Shown here piece by piece: positions 5,967 through 33,700 of a stretch of DNA of 64,000 nucleotides (position 1 is its first letter; each line of letters starts with the position of its first letter). Under the pieces are notes generated by a model. That model was not told the origin of the DNA. It searched no databases and was given only the letters and a program-made list of their open reading frames with translations. The stretch is from NCBI RefSeq assembly GCF_009914755.1, contig NC_060933.1; one strand, 5' to 3'. This DNA is from the human T2T-CHM13v2.0 reference genome, Homo sapiens. The translations under genes were made by a program, and so were the position numbers.

Positions 5967-6277
<311 letters not shown>

Positions 6278-16023: not shown

Positions 16024-16341
<318 letters not shown>

Positions 16342-17489
16342 CTACTGTAGCCATCACACTGAAGCCACATGCTGAAACTTCATAGAAAGGAAAACATTTC
16401 GCTAATGGTAAATAGGATGCTAACAGAGAAACAGAAAAATGAGGTTTCGACTCTCTCTACATTTTTGCCAATTGTAATTCAGGCCTCTAATTTTACCATG
16501 TTAAGAAAAATATTAAAATATTCTATTTTGCAGCCATACATTTGGAAGAGCAAATAAGTCACAAGAAATACCTAGCAAAAGTAGTTAAAAAAAAAACCCA
16601 AAAAGCAAAAACCCTCAAAGAAATACAGGGCCCCAAAGTGAGAGCAAATCCCACTGCTAGCTCATCTTCTCCCCCAGTCACTCTCAAAAGCTCCACTTTT
16701 TAAGTGGTGAATATTCAACATCTGTTAAGCAACATTAAAACTATTTTTCCTTCTTTGTAGATCAAAAAGGAGATCTGTAGTTTAGGTGAGGAATTCTAAC
16801 TCACCTCTGTTCCTAGTGCTTAGAAAATAGTAAATACTTCATGAATGTTAGCTGCATAATAATTTTATATACAGAGATTAGAATAACAAGCCATTGATAT
16901 AACCCCTGAACCCAGAAGGCAGAGAGGTTGACAACTCCAAAGTTAGTAAGGCAATGATTAGCATGCTAACAACATTCCCAACTTCACTACTTCACAGTAA
17001 AGCTCCTGAGAAAGGGCTATCAAACATGGTCATGGCAACTGTCTTGGCATCTATTTATCTATCAAAACACAGGAAATTAAGACTAACTTTATTATCCTTC
17101 TTTTCCTGGTTATGATTTAACATCTCTGTTACCTTAAAGCCCATCCCCCTCTCCATTTTCTTCCAATCAACAGAACTGTAAAAGACTTTCTGTAGAGAAA
17201 AGGCCAGAAATTTTGCAGGGACCCATTCATGACTAATTATCACTACCACAGGAATAGCATATTAACACTGCAATTGGTTCTAGAAGGCTCAGCAGCTGGC
17301 CCCACTGGTTGTACAGCATTTTCAAGGCTAAATTTCCAAAGAGCCCCTCCCTTATTGTTGCTTACCGAATGGAGGCACTCCCTGGAGACCTTAGAGTATA
17401 AACACCACCAGCCATAGGCTCACCCAAGAATTCTCTTTTTCTTAATTTCCCTAAATTTGCTCCTCTTTGAAACTCATTTCAATTCAAGC

Positions 17490-17670
17490 CACATTAAGCA
17501 TGTTCTGGGCACTCTTGACAGTTTTCTTATTTAATTCCCATAGCGGTCCTGTGAGATAGGTATTACTATCCTCTGTTGCATATATAAGGAAATTGAGGTT
17601 CATAGAGGTCAAGTGACTTGGCCAAGTGACAGAGTCAAGCTGATGAGGTTCTTTCTCCAACACCAGGAAG
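17490..17670 (-). mobile_element. MIR
   Basis: cctgtgagataggtattactatc...ggaaattgaggttcatagaggtcaagtgacttggccaag. Confidence 0.7.
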
Positions 17671-20600
17671 CCTGTAGCAAAGCCATATACGTAGCCAAGT
17701 TTTTATGAGCCATCTGGGCAACAGGGGACGAGTCCTTGCCACACAGACCAAGGGATCCATCCAGAGGCAACAGAAGCAGCAGTAGTTTTTGTTTTTTTGT
17801 TTTAATGGTTTAAAAATCCTACAGGAATTCTGATTGGTCCCACTAACAATCCATCGAGGCTCACCAGCCGGTTGACTCCTGACCTTCCATGCTTCTCATC
17901 CTAATTAATGCAAGGTCCTTGGATCACAGTGTGAGCATCAAGACCCTGTTAGAGTTAGCAATGACCTTTACATCTATCAGGCTTTTCAAAATATGTAAAA
18001 CAGCTGTGCAGTGTGAACACCTCCCCCACCCCCCACCACACACCCTGACCAACTCTTAACCTTGAAATATGGGTAGATGCATTTTTCCTAATTATAGCGT
18101 TTTCCCCAAGTTTTTAGGAAATGACTTTTCACACAGCTAAAAACCATTTGAGATGTAGCTTTTCAATTGCCCAAGCAAACTACTGAGGCATGCAAAAAGA
18201 AGATTCTTGCAAATAGATTAATTTCCTCGGCTTAAAAAGAAACCCCAGTAGCAGGGGAACAGAAAAAAACGAATGATGTGAAAAAATTGGTGGTCGCGGG
18301 GTGGGAGATTGTTTGGTTGCCATATTTGTGCCTCTGATATCCTTTTGTTCTCCCACCTCATTGTATTAAGGATGCTAAATCAAACATGATTGCAGCGATG
18401 TTTGTGTGTGAAAATGACAAAAGCAATGGGCCAAAATCCCAACCTCATCTTGAACCCTGAGGACTTTTATGGCTTTTCCTTCACTAGGCCCTCCCCCTAA
18501 TACACATTAAAGACCACATTGTTCAAAAGGGTCATGGTAGGTTTCATACCCCATTTTAACACAACGGAAATGGTAACTGAATTTCCAAGTTTTGTTAGTA
18601 ATATTTGTATGTCCATGGAAAATGTCCATTAAAATAATCGATTCTTTGGTTTAAATATTAATGGAGAATTACAATATATCAGAGGGGCAGAATCAATTGT
18701 GTCAAGGAGGTACTGTTTGCGGTGATTAAATCAGATTTTCTTCCTGTACATCATTTTCCCCAGCAAAAGGGTACCGATTAGAGATGGGTTAAAAATATCC
18801 AGATGATGTGAGGCATCCAGATATTTTTCCTAGCCTCAAAATTGTCCAGATTATGTCAGTTTTCAACTCAAGAAGCCTAGAATAAACTAAACTTGCTAAT
18901 TTCAAGCGCAGGTCTCCCCGCCTCCCCTTATTCCATTTGTCTGTCTGCAAGCCACATTATGGACCCCCAGTTCATTTATGCATTTATTCCTGGAAGATTT
19001 CAAGTTGGGAGAAGACTATTTAAGGCTGTTTAGGATTCCATTTTTCTCAGCTGTTACCAGTCAGTTGTCACCAGTACTTTGGAAGTTTAGTAGAAGAAAG
19101 GTGGCAATGACTCCATTACTCTTTCCAAATGCCATAAAGAATTTGCATCAAGAAAGTACCTAATGAATTAATGCCTTAGTCCTCTGGAAAAGGATACAGT
19201 AAAACAGGAATGTTACAGGGTTTGGGAAAGGGGAATCTGAAAAATGAAAATCTGGGCTGGAGTAAAAGAATAACAAACTTGGTAGTGTTTTAAATATCAC
19301 AATTTCATTGGCGGAACTGCTCACTTTCCCAAGCTCAGGTGTTTTTGCTTAACACCCATATAACATGTATTAAGATGTGGCACGATATCACAACTTTAGT
19401 GCATTTAAAAATCAAATCTACAATTTTTGTAGAGTTCTTGACTATAAGTCTGGTTTAAATTATCTCAAAATAACACACTAGGAACATCTGTTTAGCTCAG
19501 TTGAAGTTTCGAGAGCCAATACCAGCTGTTCGGGGAGGGATTTCGCACATGTGTTACTCAAATCCTAACCAAATCTTAGTTTTTTCATTCCCTTAATGAT
19601 GCCTCCAAAACCAACAGGGTAAAGCAAACATTAGAATAAAAAAGAAGAGAAAAAGGGAGGGAGGAAGAGAGCAGAGAGGGGGAGAGAGAGAAGAAAAAAG
19701 ATTACTTACTCAATGCTTTGATGCATGTGACCAAGACCCAAATGATCACCCTCTCCAATTCAATACAGTATTAGCATGAGGACAAAAGGCATTTAAAAAT
19801 CAATTTGGAGTTATTTTTAGTGGGGGTTGCCTAATCTTTGCAAGTTGAGGAATGAGAATATTCCCCAACGTTGAAAGGGCACTCAAGTATTTTTCTCCTT
19901 TAAGCGGCAATCTAATTTTCACAGAGAATTCATTCGGTGTCATTGTTTTGGTTTTAGGTGTCTGTCCTGCCAGGCAGGGGCTGTGCACAAGGGCTGCATC
20001 TATCTTGAAGTGTGCACAATGGCCTCTCTTACGGCTCTCTCTCTCTCTCTGTTATTGATCCTTACAGATGCTCCAAAGCCCTTCCCCCACCTTTCTCCAA
20101 ATCCCAACCCCCATTCTGAAAGATAGCTTAAGAAATAAGACTTCCTGCCTAGCGACTGGCAGGGCTGAAAGACCAGATTGTATGACTCCACAGATCAGGC
20201 CTGCCACAGTGAAAGCTTGAATAGAGTTAACCCTCTGTGAACTAAAACAAAACATTTGTATGCCCAGCTGTGACAAAGGTTAATTTAAATGGACAAGGGC
20301 CCAATATCTAAAACCAGGCAATGCTTTTTTTACAGTAGCATTTTCACTGACCTCTTTTGTAAGCAGTTGATTTTGCCTCTTAAGATTCCAAAACCTCCTA
20401 CAACTGGGATCATTCATTTTGCTTTATTAGAATTTTCAATGAAAGATCTAGGTGAACAATTTTAAATTCATTTCCTTATTTTATGAAAGTTCTTGTTTTG
20501 GTACCGTAAGTTATTTTCTGCAGTTGAATGACTAAGAAGAACTGAAGTTTCAAAACTTAAATATGAACCAGGGGAGAACTTTCTGTGCAAACCTTTTTTC

Positions 20601-21988
20601 TCTTTCAGAGCTAGCAGACTACATATCACTAAGAGACTCAAGCTCGTCGAAAAAAAATCTAAATTCTCCAGAGTCATCCCTTCTAAACTCATGTAATTAC
20701 TGCTCTGGGACTCTGCCAGCTCCTAAACTCCTGTCCAACAGATCCAAAGCAAATCTTACTTCTTAAACTACTCCTTTCTGGAAAAGCTAGTATATCCAGG
20801 ATAGTTTAACAAAGAATTTCTATGCATACTGGGGGAGGAGGCTGTTCAAGATAAATAACAGGCCTTATATATAACTGGTATTTTCTACAAACTTTCTCTT
20901 GTTTCTGCTAACTTGCACTAAAAACCAATAATTCTGGCATGTAAGGTGCTGGGGTACAACATATAAGGGAGGAATGAAGCCAAGGTTACTAAAAAGAAGA
21001 ATGCTATTATCAGAGGGGGTCCCACTTCCCTGGTTTGTGCATCCCCAGAGTGAGAATGAAACTGCAAAGCTGCCTTTGGCAGATGTTAGCCACGCTGCAA
21101 GAGGCTGGGAAGCTTTCCCAGGACCAGCTATTTCGTAGGGTTAATGCCAGTCCTAGAAATTTATCAACTGCTTCAAAGAGTCGGGAACTCTTCTCAGTAG
21201 TGCTTGCCTTTAAGAAAACCAAACTCTTGCAAACTCTTAGCTTGTACTTCATAAACATGGCAAAACTTTAATACTAACATTCATCCATTTTATCTGTTCC
21301 TTCAGCTGTATGTGTCTTTCCTGGCCTAAATAATAAAGTTGTGGAAAAGTGGGGTTTCTCACATAACTAGGAGACTATCCCAAATAAACAAGTTATAACA
21401 CTAGTGACTATTCATTACATACACACACATGCAGAAAATGTACCCATTTAAAAAGCAACCCACTTAAAAAGAAATTAGCAATGGCTTAGTCTTATATCCC
21501 AAACTGTAAAGTATAGAAGCTCCCTACCAGAGGATGAGGTTGCCTTATCAATGGCCTCATGACCCCAATTCTATCTATAATTAACAGTAGTAAATAAGAC
21601 TTTGGCAGATAGCGAACTGGATTAAGGAATTTAAAATACAAACAACATCTGTCAAGAAATAAACAACAATTTTTAATGTAAATTTTATCTATGTACTGAC
21701 ACGTATATTTAATTTTTTTAAAATCACTATAAAATTTAAATTAATCCCCTTTCTTCTGCTCTTCATCAACCACAACAATGAATTCACTGCAGTTCTCTCT
21801 CACTTTTCTCCATTCCAAAACATTTACAGCCACTTGCTACATACATGAAAACTTTCTAGCTGAACTCTGCGAAGACACAAAAAAAACAGTTGCCTGTGGA
21901 CTGCCTCCCTTCTCCCTCAAGGCTATTTGCTCTAAACCTTCAAAGAAAATTTCTAACCCTTAGATTTGGGCCCCAGACTGTTCCTTAC

Positions 21989-22004
21989 CTTCCCATGTCT
22001 CCAT
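21989..22004 (-). CDS. NR6A1: Coding part of a putative alternative first (or cassette) exon, M-E-T-W-E plus 1 nt, phase 1
   Basis: Reverse complement reads catgaa ATG GAG ACA TGG GAA G|gtaagg. Strong AAG|GTAAGG donor, G at -3 and +4, in-frame TAG upstream, located in the Alu-free island. Resembles the short M(E/D)TWE N-termini I recall for non-mammalian GCNF. Confidence 0.65.
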
Positions 22005-22005
22005 T

Positions 22006-22047
22006 TCATGCTTCTTGTAGTCTGCTGAAAAGTTCTATTGCAGCCAT
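22006..22047 (-). other. uORF MAAIELFSRLQEA* in the leader of the METWE exon
   Basis: atg gct gca ata gaa ctt ttc agc aga cta caa gaa gca tga. The stop lies 1 nt before the main ATG and overlaps a second, out-of-frame ATG (22007-22009). Confidence 0.55.
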
Positions 22048-22089
22048 GAAGAAACAGAGATTACAGGACAAGTCCAGCTTGATGACTAC

Positions 22090-22250
22090 CCTTCCGACAC
22101 TTGGTCAATTCCTCTAAGCCGGGACTACGACAGTCATCCTCACAGGTCAGTTTACAAGCTGGTCATGTGATTGCAAAGTTCAGGCTCTAAGGTCACAACG
22201 TGTACGGAGTTCGTTTATTACCAAAGGTTATCTAAGTGGAACTGATAGAC
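22090..22250 (-). promoter_or_regulatory. Putative internal promoter of the METWE exon
   Basis: Local CpG cluster. Four co-oriented nuclear-receptor half-sites (AGGTCA 22144, TGGTCA 22160, AGTTCA 22177, AGGTCA 22190), a TCATGTGA E-box (22163) and a GTTTACA forkhead site (22150). Confidence 0.5.
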
Positions 22251-24079
22251 TTATTTTCTTTAGTTAACAATACTGCCTAGCACGTCTTTCTGAAAACTAT
22301 TATGGGAACCATTTCATGGGAAATTCTCCTCCAGTCTTCTTTAAGCTAAGATCCTAAAATTAAAAGGCAGCATTTTAAAAGAATTTATTTAAAAGGGTTC
22401 TGGTATGTGGGGCTTTTCTTCTTTTTTTTCAAGAACTATTCTATGCTATAGTCTTCCAGACTGGGTTAGAAAATTTAAAGCCAAAACCTTTCGGTCTAAG
22501 GAAAAGACAAAACGGAAACTCAATGTTAGGTATGTAGGGTTTTTCTGGGGGGTATGGGGGGCGTGCAGAAGTGGGATTCCCTGTTTTCTGTCATTACAAT
22601 AAACAATGACAAGGCAAATTCCTCTAAGAAAATTAATACACAGAGCTAAGAGTTGTTTGCAGGGCTTACTTTAACTCTAGCCCTTCATTTCCATGCTCTG
22701 GTTATCTATACTAGTTTGAAAGAATGCAAGAATGCTCTGGTTATACATATTAGTTTGGAGAAAGGAAACTAGGTCTGCAAAATCCTTTTACAAAGCAAAA
22801 GTTACTAATTTCACCACCCCCAATCCTTACCCTCAGCCAAAAGTTTACACCTTCAAACTAAGCTTCTTGCTTCATTCCCCTAAAACTCATAAGATCTTAA
22901 ACAATCATCATGCTATAGCTTCCCTGATTCATGAACCACACCAGCAGCACGCAGCAGAGTGTATAACACCGAGTGTGCACATACACACTCATACCTTACC
23001 ACAGTACCCCAAAGGCTGGCAAATTGGAGCCACGTGCTAATGGCACATGATGTCAAACATTCAGCTAAACATTCAAATATCAGGACACAATAAAAGGGCA
23101 AGCTCCACTAAGAAGGTGGAATGTCCCCAAGAGAAACTGATTTCTGAGGATAAATGCTTTTTAACTGTGTAAAATGTTTCATTCTATGAAATCTCCCCTG
23201 CCAATTTAGCTTTAGGAATAACTTAAAGGCTATGCACACTTTACAGCTGTATTCCAGAAAAAGGAGACCCTTCTTGGAGTAGGACTGGAATCTGTCACTT
23301 AGCAGCCATATAACTGAATGGCAAATATTGCTACTACCATTACTAGAGGGCTTTTCTAACCAACAGAGAGCATTAGGGTCATCTTACAAAGTAGAGCCTA
23401 AAGAGAAAGTGACCAATGATTTAGACGAGGAAAAAGGCTGTAATTTGTCTAAAAATAAATATTCTGCCACTGCCATGACACACTTTACCCCATCATAAAT
23501 ACACTGACCAGCTTTCCCACCCCCCACCCCAACCCCATAGATTAATATTTTCTTCTCAGTCCCTGTGGATTTAACGTAGTTCTTAAATGATTTTAGTAAA
23601 GTGACTACAAATAGAATGAGGGTGGAAAAAATGGAAGGGGAAGGTCCACTAGCAAAAAGCTACTCAACTGGAAACAAAGGGCAGCTCTCTGTCTCCCTTA
23701 AGGATATGGATTTATTAGAACTAAATATCTGCACACAACAGAGGTGTAGTAAGCCTCTGTGCTTTACTGCACCAACTTTTGGAGGAAAAGATGAATAAGG
23801 AGCTATTAGTCTAACTTCTGCTACCAAGACTGAAGCAGACGCCTTGATTTTCAAGGTGAGTCCAACTAACAATCCTTGATGCACCCATAAGCCTGAGAAC
23901 AAATCTTTAACATAGCTTAAGGAGACAATTAAGTTTCATCTTTGGATATAGAGCCACATTTCTTCAGCATTCTCAGTCCCACAAGTTTTTTGAGAGCACT
24001 TTATAGACTCTACTGGAAGAGGCGAGAGAAGATGAACAGACACCACACTGCCCATGTGAATGCAAAAGATGAACTCTAA

Positions 24080-24395
<316 letters not shown>

Positions 24396-24429
24396 TAATT
24401 TTTAACTACGCCTCCAAGTAAGATTGTTT

Positions 24430-24620
24430 AGCTGGGGATGGGTGTGCACACCAGTAGTCCCAGCTGTTCAGGAGGCTGAGGCAGGAGGATGGCTTGAAGC
24501 CAGGAGTTTGAGGCTGCAGTGCGCTATGATTGTGGCCTCTGAATAGTCACTGCACTCCAGCTTGGGCAACAGAGTGACCTCGTCCCTACTTAAAAAAAAA
24601 AAAAAGAAGAAGAAGAAAAA
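24430..24620 (+). mobile_element. Alu monomer (FRAM/FAM-like)
   Basis: Single arm with gcctctgaatagtcactgcactccag. Confidence 0.8.
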
Positions 24621-24798
24621 TCATTTAAGATTAACAGTACTGGAATTTATAAGTGGGAAGGAGAGAGAAAACAGGAAATCAACATTTTCTACTTGCTAAT
24701 ACTAGCTTTGAAATGTGGGAAAAAAGTAGATAAACAAAATTCTAAATCCAAACATACGTAGCATTTGCATACTGCAAATCTAATGGGGTCCAAATTAT

Positions 24799-25922
<1,124 letters not shown>

Positions 25923-33398: not shown

Positions 33399-33700
33399 GC
33401 TGGGCATGGTGGCATATCCCTACGGTCCCAGCCACTCACGAGGCTGAGGCAGAAAGGTCACTTGAGCCTAGGAGTTCTGGGCTATAGTACACTACGCCAA
33501 TCCGGTGTTCCACACTAAGTTCAGCTTCAATATGGTGATCTCCCAGTAGCAGGGGACCACCAGGTTGCCTAAGGCGGGATGAACTGGCCTAGGTCAGAAA
33601 TGGAGCAGGTCAAAACTCCCATACTGATCAGAAGTGGGACTGTGCCTGTCCGTAGCCACTGGATTCCAGCCTGGGCAACACAGTGAGACCCCATCTCTTT
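33399..33700 (+). pseudogene. 7SL (SRP) RNA retropseudogene (RN7SL-P type)
   Basis: Alu-domain ends plus the S domain (ctaagttcagcttcaatatggtga...ggggaccaccaggttgcctaagg...ggagcaggtcaaaactccc), diverged from 7SL. TSD atagaaagatagaataa / ataggaagatagaataa (33382-33398, 33708-33724). Confidence 0.93.

What the first reader, a model, noticed from the sequence alone, without database searches (positions are those of the whole stretch)
21983..22250. Hidden minus-strand METWE exon: probable short-N-terminus alternative start of NR6A1/GCNF
Seen: ATG GAG ACA TGG GAA G|gtaagg with a consensus donor, good Kozak context and an upstream in-frame TAG, at the centre of a 7.7 kb Alu-free island and next to a small CpG cluster. 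Recalled, unverified: the human NR6A1 exon encoding ...SVSDDRAEQRTCLICG is entered in phase 1, and fish/frog GCNF proteins begin with a short M(D/E)TWE-like leader. Inference: an internal promoter yields METWEVSVSDDRAEQR..., skipping the Gly/Pro-rich N-terminus and most of the intron. That would give a quickly transcribed isoform of a regulator of pluripotency exit and axial patterning.
Basis: partly seen in the sequence, partly recalled or inferred. Interest (0 to 1): 0.85.

Follow-up and report, generated by a model that had tools for sequence, protein, structure and literature searches.

The report
Known alternative first exon of NR6A1
This is a real but already annotated alternative first exon of the human NR6A1 gene; it gives the receptor a five-residue start (METWE) in place of its usual N-terminus, a form found from fish to mammals whose specific role has not been tested.

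Summary
On the minus strand, ATG GAG ACA TGG GAA G (22004-21989) is followed by GTAAGG. It has G at -3 and +4 and an in-frame TAG at 22037-22035.

The reading is also essentially right. I found the NR6A1 DNA-binding-domain exon 41,180 nt downstream. The canonical exon 2 donor is also phase 1.

An M(D/E)(T/S)W(E/D) leader directly before the domain occurs in 10 of 147 vertebrate NR6A1 models examined: tree shrew, camel, hyena, a frog, a sturgeon and five teleosts.

The exon is not hidden. RefSeq transcripts already use exons 21989-22123 and 21989-25418 (hub table). Mouse "short and long isoforms" with alternative start sites are in print.

One is out of frame, 5 nt before the METWE ATG. The "CpG cluster" is 5 CpGs, not an island.

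No expression or translation data could be examined here.

Verdict: already known, low interest.

The parts
21989..22123 (-). Alternative first exon of NR6A1, short form: a 119-nt leader plus 16 coding nt.
   Evidence: The exon coordinates come from RefSeq 'other transcripts' (hub table). The sequence was read. The bases before 22123 are ...gtagt|C, so there is no AG directly in front. 22123 is therefore a 5' end, not a splice acceptor.
21989..22004 (-). Coding start ATG GAG ACA TGG GAA G (M E T W E plus the first base of a split codon). The exon ends in phase 1.
   Evidence: Phase 1 matches the acceptor of the domain exon and the canonical exon 2 donor.
21983..21988 (-). Splice donor GTAAGG (AAG|GTAAGG).
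   Evidence: It is one of only 2 MAG|GTRAG sites on this strand of the window.
22035..22037 (-). In-frame TAG. It prevents the NR6A1 frame from starting upstream of 22004 in either exon form.
22006..22047 (-). Upstream ORF 1: ATG 22047 (T at -3, G at +4), 13 codons (MAAIELFSRLQEA), stop TGA at 22008-22006, one base before the METWE ATG.
22007..22009 (-). Out-of-frame ATG (AGC ATG A, A at -3), 5 nt upstream of the METWE ATG. It reads MKWRHGK to the donor in phase 0. After splicing to the canonical acceptor it would run 77 more codons and stop inside the domain exon, 84 codons in all.
   Evidence: A rodent gene model (P0003, Scotinomys teguina) starts MKWRHGK.
22124..22250 (-). Presumed core promoter: CpG-poor and without a TATA box.
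   Evidence: Promoter function is inferred; no transcription-start data were available.
21989..25418 (-). Long RefSeq form of the same exon. Its 3,414-nt leader holds 55 ATGs. Its 5' end lies inside an Alu (25399-25676) that interrupts the RANBP1 pseudogene.
   Evidence: Hub table.
16337..24082 (.). 7,746-nt stretch free of Alu-like multi-copy elements, containing the exon.
   Evidence: self-BLAST depth.

Best explanation
Window 21989-22123 (minus strand) is an alternative first exon of NR6A1 (GCNF). It lies in intron 2, 137.4 kb downstream of exon 2 and 41.2 kb upstream of the exon that encodes the DNA-binding domain.

Transcription would start at a CpG-poor internal promoter near 22123. The exon contributes ATG GAG ACA TGG GAA G and splices in phase 1 onto the domain exon. 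The product reads METWE-V-SVSDDRAEQRTCLICG. With the stronger acceptor 12 nt further on it reads METWE-D-DRAEQ, which is the fish and frog layout.

[quoted passage not shown] Its 47-residue Gly/Pro-rich N-terminal region is replaced by five residues.

The two first-exon choices are ancient, and the short leader is found in bony vertebrates from teleosts to mammals. The main difference between the isoforms is therefore likely to be regulatory: a separate promoter, a 78.6-kb rather than 254-kb transcription unit, and a leader with upstream ATGs.

Shown here: exon sequence, phase, in-frame join and the orthologous leaders. Taken from annotation: exon boundaries and usage. Inferred: promoter activity, translation from the METWE ATG, and any timing benefit.
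For: (1) The exon end 21989 and starts 22123 and 25418 are RefSeq exons of other NR6A1 transcripts (hub table).

(2) The sequence is as described.

(3) A PF00105 search of the window's own genome found the NR6A1 domain exon at C9:136752570-136752776, minus strand. Its acceptor ...tgatcag|TT TCT GTT TCA GAT GAT CGG is phase 1, and a second AG 12 nt further (TTTCAG|AT GAT) is also phase 1.

(4) Canonical exon 2 ends ...GGC ACT A|GTAAGT, also phase 1, so the two upstream exons are interchangeable.

(5) Among 147 NR6A1-type proteins retrieved (the best 120 of 966 hits, and the best 120 of 155, which added 27 new ones), 10 begin M[DE][TS]W[ED] directly before the domain:
- Tupaia P0010, METWEVSVSDD.
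- Camelus P0018 and Crocuta P0121, METWEVSVPDD.
- Frog P0056, MDTWEDDRVDQRA.
- Sturgeon P0120.
- Teleosts P0061, P0063, P0064, P0091 and P0124.
Variants occur in P0132 (MDGWDD), P0125 (internal MDAWED) and P0065. The non-mammalian ones align to canonical NR6A1 from their residue 6 onward.

(6) Rodent model P0003 begins MKWRHGK. That is the other reading frame of the same 21 nt, which is consistent with the exon being conserved in a rodent.

(7) For mouse, Chang et al. describe 'Nr6a1 short and long isoforms' with 'alternative start sites' that vary the N-terminus, and state that isoform sequences were confirmed by amplification from E10.5 tissue (passages and Fig. S1 legend of bioRxiv 10.1101/2022.03.21.485239; passages of PMC9755267). 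[quoted passage not shown]

(8) The TAG at 22037-22035 makes 22004 the only possible start of the NR6A1 frame in this exon.
Against: - No transcription-start, junction-read, ribosome-profiling or peptide data could be examined. Usage in human rests on the RefSeq exon table. I could not see whether RefSeq places the coding start at METWE.
- The leader has two upstream ATGs. The one at 22009 has A at -3, is out of frame, and would give an 84-codon ORF ending in the domain exon. That should compete with the METWE ATG.
- The long exon form has 55 upstream ATGs and begins inside an Alu. It is unlikely to be a productive mRNA.
- Mammalian protein support is three automatic gene models. One of them (P0121) is a chimera with the neighbouring NR5A1, only 33% identical to NR6A1.
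- None of the bird, reptile or shark models listed carries the leader. Callorhinchus P0138 and P0143 begin MGENEDD.
- The leader is only five residues, and the sequence pattern alone is not beyond chance.
- I did not see the mouse short isoform's sequence, because the figure is not held.
Confidence: 0.85

Rival explanations
1. The exon is transcribed and spliced, but it mainly serves as a non-productive or regulatory 5' exon. Ribosomes would start at the upstream ATGs (22047 or 22009). The 22009 frame gives an 84-codon out-of-frame ORF that ends in the domain exon, so the mRNA would be poorly translated or degraded and little METWE-NR6A1 protein would be made in human.
For: There are two ATGs before the METWE ATG in the 119-nt leader. 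The second has A at -3 and lies 5 nt upstream. Its frame stops at codon 77 of the domain exon, upstream of seven further exon junctions. A rodent gene model chose that ATG (P0003). The long exon form has 55 upstream ATGs.
Against: The M(D/E)TWE peptide together with the phase-1 donor recurs in 10 of 147 models from teleosts to mammals. That fits selection on the coding frame. The METWE ATG has the better context, G at -3 and G at +4. The uORF stop lies one base before it, so re-initiation or leaky scanning is plausible. Mouse authors treat the short form as protein-coding.
Confidence: 0.12
2. A chance ATG-plus-donor motif in intronic DNA, with no real exon.
For: The motif is short. With only 2 consensus donors on this strand of the window, one having an open phase-1 ATG is not statistically remarkable. 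The region is CpG-poor and lacks a TATA box.
Against: RefSeq transcripts end two exons exactly at 21989 (hub table). The encoded leader is found before the DNA-binding domain in many vertebrate models. The phase matches the next exon.
Confidence: 0.02

Closest known systems
Human NR6A1 RefSeq transcripts that use exon 21989-22123 or 21989-25418 (hub table). From memory, unverified, the curated one is transcript variant 3. NM_001278546 is listed as an NR6A1 accession in a table of PMC4342183.
   Same: Identical exon boundaries and donor. This is the same object.
   Different: Nothing differs in sequence. I could not see from the table where RefSeq places the coding start, or which accession carries which exon form.
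Mouse Nr6a1 'short isoform' (Chang et al. 2022: PMC9755267 and bioRxiv 10.1101/2022.03.21.485239; review PMC10909835).
   Same: It is a second sense transcript with an alternative start site. [quoted passage not shown] It was confirmed by amplification from E10.5 tissue.
   Different: I saw only text passages and the figure legend, not the figure. That the mouse form begins with the same leader is inferred, not seen. Its specific function is stated to be unclear.
Xenopus laevis GCNF isoforms. The database holds 'Isoform Oo' (P0066, 476 aa, long N-terminus). From memory, unverified, the other isoform is the 435-aa embryonic 'Em' form.
   Same: The frog model P0056 (Leptodactylus, 435 aa) begins MDTWE-DDRVDQRA, the same five-residue leader joined directly to the domain. 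Replacing the 46 N-terminal residues of P0066 with 5 gives 435.
   Different: Frog and fish join the leader directly to DD. The three mammalian models use an acceptor 12 nt upstream and read METWE-V-SV(S/P)DD. The link between the short form and embryonic expression is recalled, not tested here.
ES-cell-specific internal promoter of LRH-1/NR5A2 (review PMC2233893, passage seen).
   Same: A nuclear receptor active in early development uses an internal promoter to make a transcript whose first ATG lies further down the gene. This gives a different N-terminus with the same core domains.
   Different: It is a different gene and subfamily. This is an analogy of mechanism only.

Membership tests
Alternative first exon of NR6A1 (short N-terminal isoform) | Lies within NR6A1 on the sense strand, upstream of the DNA-binding-domain exon. 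| tested here: met
   The window is C9:136772001-136836000. NR6A1 exons are all on the minus strand: exon 1 at window 197376 and below, exon 2 ending at 159556, and the domain exon at -19192 to -19433.
Alternative first exon of NR6A1 (short N-terminal isoform) | The exon boundary is used by annotated transcripts, and the 5' end is not a splice acceptor. | tested here: met
   RefSeq exons 21989-22123 and 21989-25418 (hub table). There is no AG directly before 22123. The underlying transcript evidence was not seen.
Alternative first exon of NR6A1 (short N-terminal isoform) | The donor phase matches the acceptor of the next coding exon, so the ATG opens the NR6A1 frame. | tested here: met
   There are 16 nt from the ATG to the donor, which is phase 1. 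Both acceptors are phase 1. The canonical exon 2 donor is phase 1.
Alternative first exon of NR6A1 (short N-terminal isoform) | An orthologous leader is present in other vertebrates. | tested here: met
   10 of 147 retrieved NR6A1 models begin M[DE][TS]W[ED] directly before the domain, plus 3 variants. None of the bird, reptile or shark models listed does.
Alternative first exon of NR6A1 (short N-terminal isoform) | Transcription starts here and junction reads exist in human tissues. | not testable with these tools
   No CAGE or RNA-seq data were available.
Alternative first exon of NR6A1 (short N-terminal isoform) | Translation starts at the METWE ATG. | not testable with these tools
   Only sequence context is available. 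It has G at -3 and +4, but two upstream ATGs precede it.
CpG-island promoter | A stretch of several hundred nt with high GC and CpG observed/expected above about 0.6. | tested here: not met
   22000-22300 has 7 CpGs, GC 0.42 and o/e 0.53. 21700-22500 has o/e 0.35. By contrast, the canonical exon 1 region has GC 0.76 and o/e 0.88 over 601 nt.
uORF-controlled mRNA leader | Upstream ATGs in the leader whose presence is conserved. | tested here: inconclusive
   Two upstream ATGs are present in human. One rodent model starting MKWRHGK suggests the second is conserved there. No genome alignments were available.

The most novel reading that the evidence does not exclude
The METWE exon is the human counterpart of the ancestral 'embryonic' GCNF promoter, the short form of frogs and fish. 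Its compact 78.6-kb unit would take roughly a third of the transcription time of the 254-kb canonical unit. Its leader has an unusual layout: the uORF stop, an out-of-frame ATG and the METWE ATG all fall within 8 nt (GC-ATG-A-A-ATG-G). Together these could form a timing and translation gate that sets how fast NR6A1 protein appears during exit from pluripotency and trunk elongation. The CpG-island promoter 175 kb upstream would serve the germ line.
Probability: 0.15. Interest if true: 0.5.

Novelty: already known. Interest (0 to 1): 0.15.

Why it matters
NR6A1 represses OCT4 at exit from pluripotency and sets trunk vertebral number. Heterozygous human variants cause an oculo-vertebral-renal syndrome (abstract and passages of PMC12226721).

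Functional work seen here used only the long form: NM_033334.4 in PMC12226721 and the 'long isoform' transgene in PMC9755267. A 2024 review states that it is unclear whether protein function is controlled through alternative transcripts.

The short form is annotated and conserved from teleosts to mammals. It is therefore a legitimate but unexplored target for isoform-specific expression and knockout studies, and its exon and promoter should be included when interpreting variants in the large intron. As a genome-scan finding it adds nothing beyond existing annotation.

Tried and rejected
- Paper searches. The term 'METWE' gave 119 unrelated papers, of which the 20 listed were irrelevant. 'xEmGCNF' gave 0 papers. 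'Nr6a1' with 'short isoform' gave 2 papers; I read one (PMC3188798), which was irrelevant, and judged the other irrelevant from its listing. 'NR6A1 / isoform / alternative promoter' gave 10 papers; I opened two (PMC3923872 and PMC10049099) and neither describes this exon. Within the searchable library I found nothing on the function of the human short form.
- The two held supplementary files of PMC9755267 do not mention isoforms. Supplementary Fig. 1, which should show the mouse N-terminal sequences, is a figure and is not held.
- The sigma-70 promoter and terminator scan is a bacterial model. It found nothing and has no bearing here.
- The Rfam scan of the window gave only the 7SL pseudogene. 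The + strand ORFs around the exon are short and unremarkable.
- tblastn of the N-terminal parts of 15 mammalian models against the window: I printed only the first 6,000 characters. All rows seen were Alu-derived matches of the orangutan model P0012, and rows for the other 14 queries were not seen. No match to the NEETDSLTLGQGH segment appeared among the rows seen.
- AGGTCA half-sites are not enriched window-wide (46 found, 39.8 expected). I treat the pair upstream of 22123 as an aside only.
- I ran no further search on looking for the Xenopus laevis short isoform. At 90% clustering it is probably hidden inside another cluster.

Full report
**What is in the sequence.** On the minus strand the window reads ...GAAGC ATG AA ATG GAG ACA TGG GAA G|GTAAGG.
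- The ATG of interest is at 22004-22002. The last exon base is 21989. The donor is AAG|GTAAGG.
- The ATG has G at -3 and G at +4. The nearest upstream in-frame stop is TAG at 22037-22035.
- The exon end 21989 coincides with the end of two exons that RefSeq assigns to other NR6A1 transcripts, 21989-22123 and 21989-25418 (hub table).
- The bases before 22123 (...gtagt|C) are not a splice acceptor. 22123 is therefore a transcript 5' end, as expected for a first exon.

**Surroundings.**
- A self-BLAST of the window shows Alu-like multi-copy elements everywhere except 16337-24082. The exon sits about three quarters of the way along it, not at the centre.
- The 'CpG cluster' is 5 CpGs in 22100-22250, observed/expected 0.65. 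The figure is 0.19 for the island and 0.25 for the window. This is not a CpG island.
- The canonical exon 1 region, by contrast, has GC 0.76 and CpG observed/expected 0.88 over 601 nt.
- The sense strand of the window has only 2 matches to MAG|GTRAG. Only this one has an open phase-1 ATG within 90 nt.
- That makes it the single candidate in the window, but with so few sites the pattern alone is not beyond chance.

**Testing the reading frame.** The window holds no canonical NR6A1 exon, so I searched the window's own genome with the nuclear-receptor zinc-finger family PF00105.
- The NR6A1 domain exon lies at C9:136752570-136752776, minus strand.
- Its sequence reads ...tgatcag|TT TCT GTT TCA GAT GAT CGG GCT GAA CAA CGA ACC TGT... 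and ends ...CGG AAG|GTGAGT.
- The canonical acceptor is therefore entered in phase 1. The METWE exon's G plus TT gives Val, so the product reads METWE-V-SVSDDRAEQRTCLICG.
- A second acceptor 12 nt further on has a better pyrimidine tract (TTTCTGTTTCAG|AT GAT). It is also phase 1 and would give METWE-D-DRAEQ.

**The rest of the gene**.
- Exon 1 begins with ATG at window 197376 and encodes MERDE...PRNG.
- Exon 2 encodes FCQDELAELDPGT and ends ACT A|GTAAGT at window 159556, again phase 1.
- The domain exon is exon 3, at window -19192 to -19433.
- Exon 2 and the METWE exon are thus interchangeable in frame.
- Intron 2 is 178,747 nt. The METWE exon starts 137.4 kb into it and leaves an intron of 41,180 nt, so 77% of intron 2 is skipped.
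- The transcription unit shrinks from 254,060 nt to 78,615 nt (hub gene span and my arithmetic).

**Conservation.** I searched the translated domain exon against the large protein collection, asking for longer proteins.
- That search gave 966 hits, of which the best 120 were listed.
- A second search scored only the first 40 residues of the camel short form. It gave 155 hits among 167 candidates, the best 120 listed, of which 27 were new.
- Of the 147 distinct proteins, 10 begin M[DE][TS]W[ED] immediately before the domain:
  - Tupaia chinensis isoform X3: METWEVSVSDDRAEQRT.
  - Camelus bactrianus and Crocuta crocuta: METWEVSVPDDRAEQRT.
  - The frog Leptodactylus fuscus: MDTWEDDRVDQRA (435 aa).
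  - Acipenser ruthenus: MDTWEDDRADRT.
  - The teleosts Electrophorus, Paramormyrops, Brienomyrus, Clupea and Aplochiton.
- Three more carry variants. Chanos has MDGWDD. Labrus has an internal MDAWED. A Takifugu model starts MDTWE and then diverges.
- The non-mammalian short forms align to canonical NR6A1 from their residue 6 onward.
- A five-residue peptide followed by a phase-1 donor would not recur by chance in this many lineages. The exon is therefore old, at least as old as bony vertebrates.

**Results against a universal pattern.**
- None of the bird, reptile or shark models listed has the leader. Callorhinchus begins MGENEDD.
- The hyena model is a chimera with the neighbouring NR5A1, only 33% identical to NR6A1.
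- All of these are automatic gene models.
- A rodent model (Scotinomys teguina, P0003) begins MKWRHGK. That is the other frame of the same 21 nt in human. This is consistent with the exon sequence being conserved in that rodent, and it shows that a gene predictor preferred the upstream ATG.

The 119-nt leader of the short exon form has two earlier ATGs.
- ATG 22047 (T at -3) opens a 13-codon uORF. Its stop, TGA 22008-22006, lies one base before the METWE ATG.
- ATG 22009 (A at -3) lies 5 nt before the METWE ATG and is out of frame. Spliced to the canonical acceptor, it would run 84 codons and stop within the domain exon.
- Translation of the METWE form therefore needs leaky scanning or re-initiation. 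How efficient that is cannot be judged from sequence.
- The long exon form (to 25418) has a 3,414-nt leader with 55 ATGs. It begins 20 nt inside an Alu (25399-25676, + orientation, flanked by an AAAAAGTTCCTCTT duplication) that interrupts the RANBP1 pseudogene. I doubt that it is a productive mRNA.

**What is in print.**
- Chang et al. (passages of PMC9755267; passages and Fig. S1 legend of bioRxiv 10.1101/2022.03.21.485239) describe mouse 'Nr6a1 short and long isoforms'. [quoted passage not shown] The isoform sequences were confirmed by amplification from E10.5 tissue.
- I could not see the figure, so I infer rather than know that the mouse short form begins with this leader.
[quoted passage not shown] It adds that it is unclear whether protein function is controlled through alternative transcripts.
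- Functional studies seen here used only the long form.
- The database names a Xenopus laevis 'Isoform Oo' with the long N-terminus (P0066). That the other frog isoform is the 435-aa embryonic form is my recollection and was not verified. A search for 'xEmGCNF' found no paper.
- NM_001278546 appears as an NR6A1 accession in a table of PMC4342183. That it is the variant carrying this exon is also recalled only.

**Mechanism.** The best-supported picture is an internal, CpG-poor promoter driving a first exon that swaps the 47-residue N-terminal region for five residues.
- What differs is where and when the gene is switched on, how long the primary transcript takes to make, and how the leader is translated.
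- At a generally accepted 2-4 kb per minute, 254 kb needs roughly 1-2 hours and 78.6 kb roughly 20-40 minutes. This is inference, not shown.
- The main rival is that in human the exon mostly yields poorly translated or unstable mRNA because of the upstream ATGs. I give that rival about 0.12.

**Verdict.** The exon is already annotated in RefSeq, present in many vertebrate gene models, and described for mouse. It is already known and of low interest as a scan finding. The short isoform's specific role remains open.

Noticed in passing
window 24798-25916 (RANBP1 pseudogene) and 25399-25676: The RANBP1 processed pseudogene is CpG-rich (57 CpGs, observed/expected 0.83, GC 0.50). It is split by a + strand Alu flanked by an AAAAAGTTCCTCTT target duplication. 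The 5' end (25418) of the long RefSeq NR6A1 exon lies 20 nt inside that Alu. I do not know whether this CpG-rich pseudogene acts as a promoter or whether the model is a truncated intronic cDNA.
   Followed up: partly
window 22144-22149 and 22190-22195 (+ strand; TGACCT on the minus strand): Two AGGTCA nuclear-receptor half-sites lie 21 and 67 nt upstream of the exon start 22123. One is in the context CTAAGGTCA. AGGTCA is not enriched window-wide (46 found, 39.8 expected). This could hint at nuclear-receptor control of the internal promoter, or it could be chance.
   Followed up: partly
L003 (C9:136751070-136754276), minus strand; window about -19192 and -19204: The NR6A1 domain exon has two phase-1 acceptors 12 nt apart. 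The downstream one has the stronger pyrimidine tract. It would remove four residues from the long form and would give the fish and frog type join (leader directly before DD) with the METWE exon.
   Followed up: partly
proteins P0121 (Crocuta crocuta) and P0003 (Scotinomys teguina): Two public gene models look mis-built. P0121 is named 'steroidogenic factor 1' and joins the NR6A1 METWE start to an NR5A1-like body (33% identity to NR6A1). P0003 starts at the out-of-frame ATG (MKWRHGK) and regains the frame through an upstream extension of the domain exon.
   Followed up: partly
window 33399-33699 (+): A full-length match to metazoan SRP RNA (Rfam RF00017, 161 bits). This agrees with the annotated 7SL pseudogene RN7SL302P.
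   Followed up: yes
protein P0012 (Pongo abelii isoform X14); best window match 5990-6070 (-): This orangutan NR6A1 model contains an Alu-derived coding insert (…[24 protein letters not shown]…) before the domain. The window's Alus match it at no more than 78% identity, so the exonised copy was not identified here.
   Followed up: no
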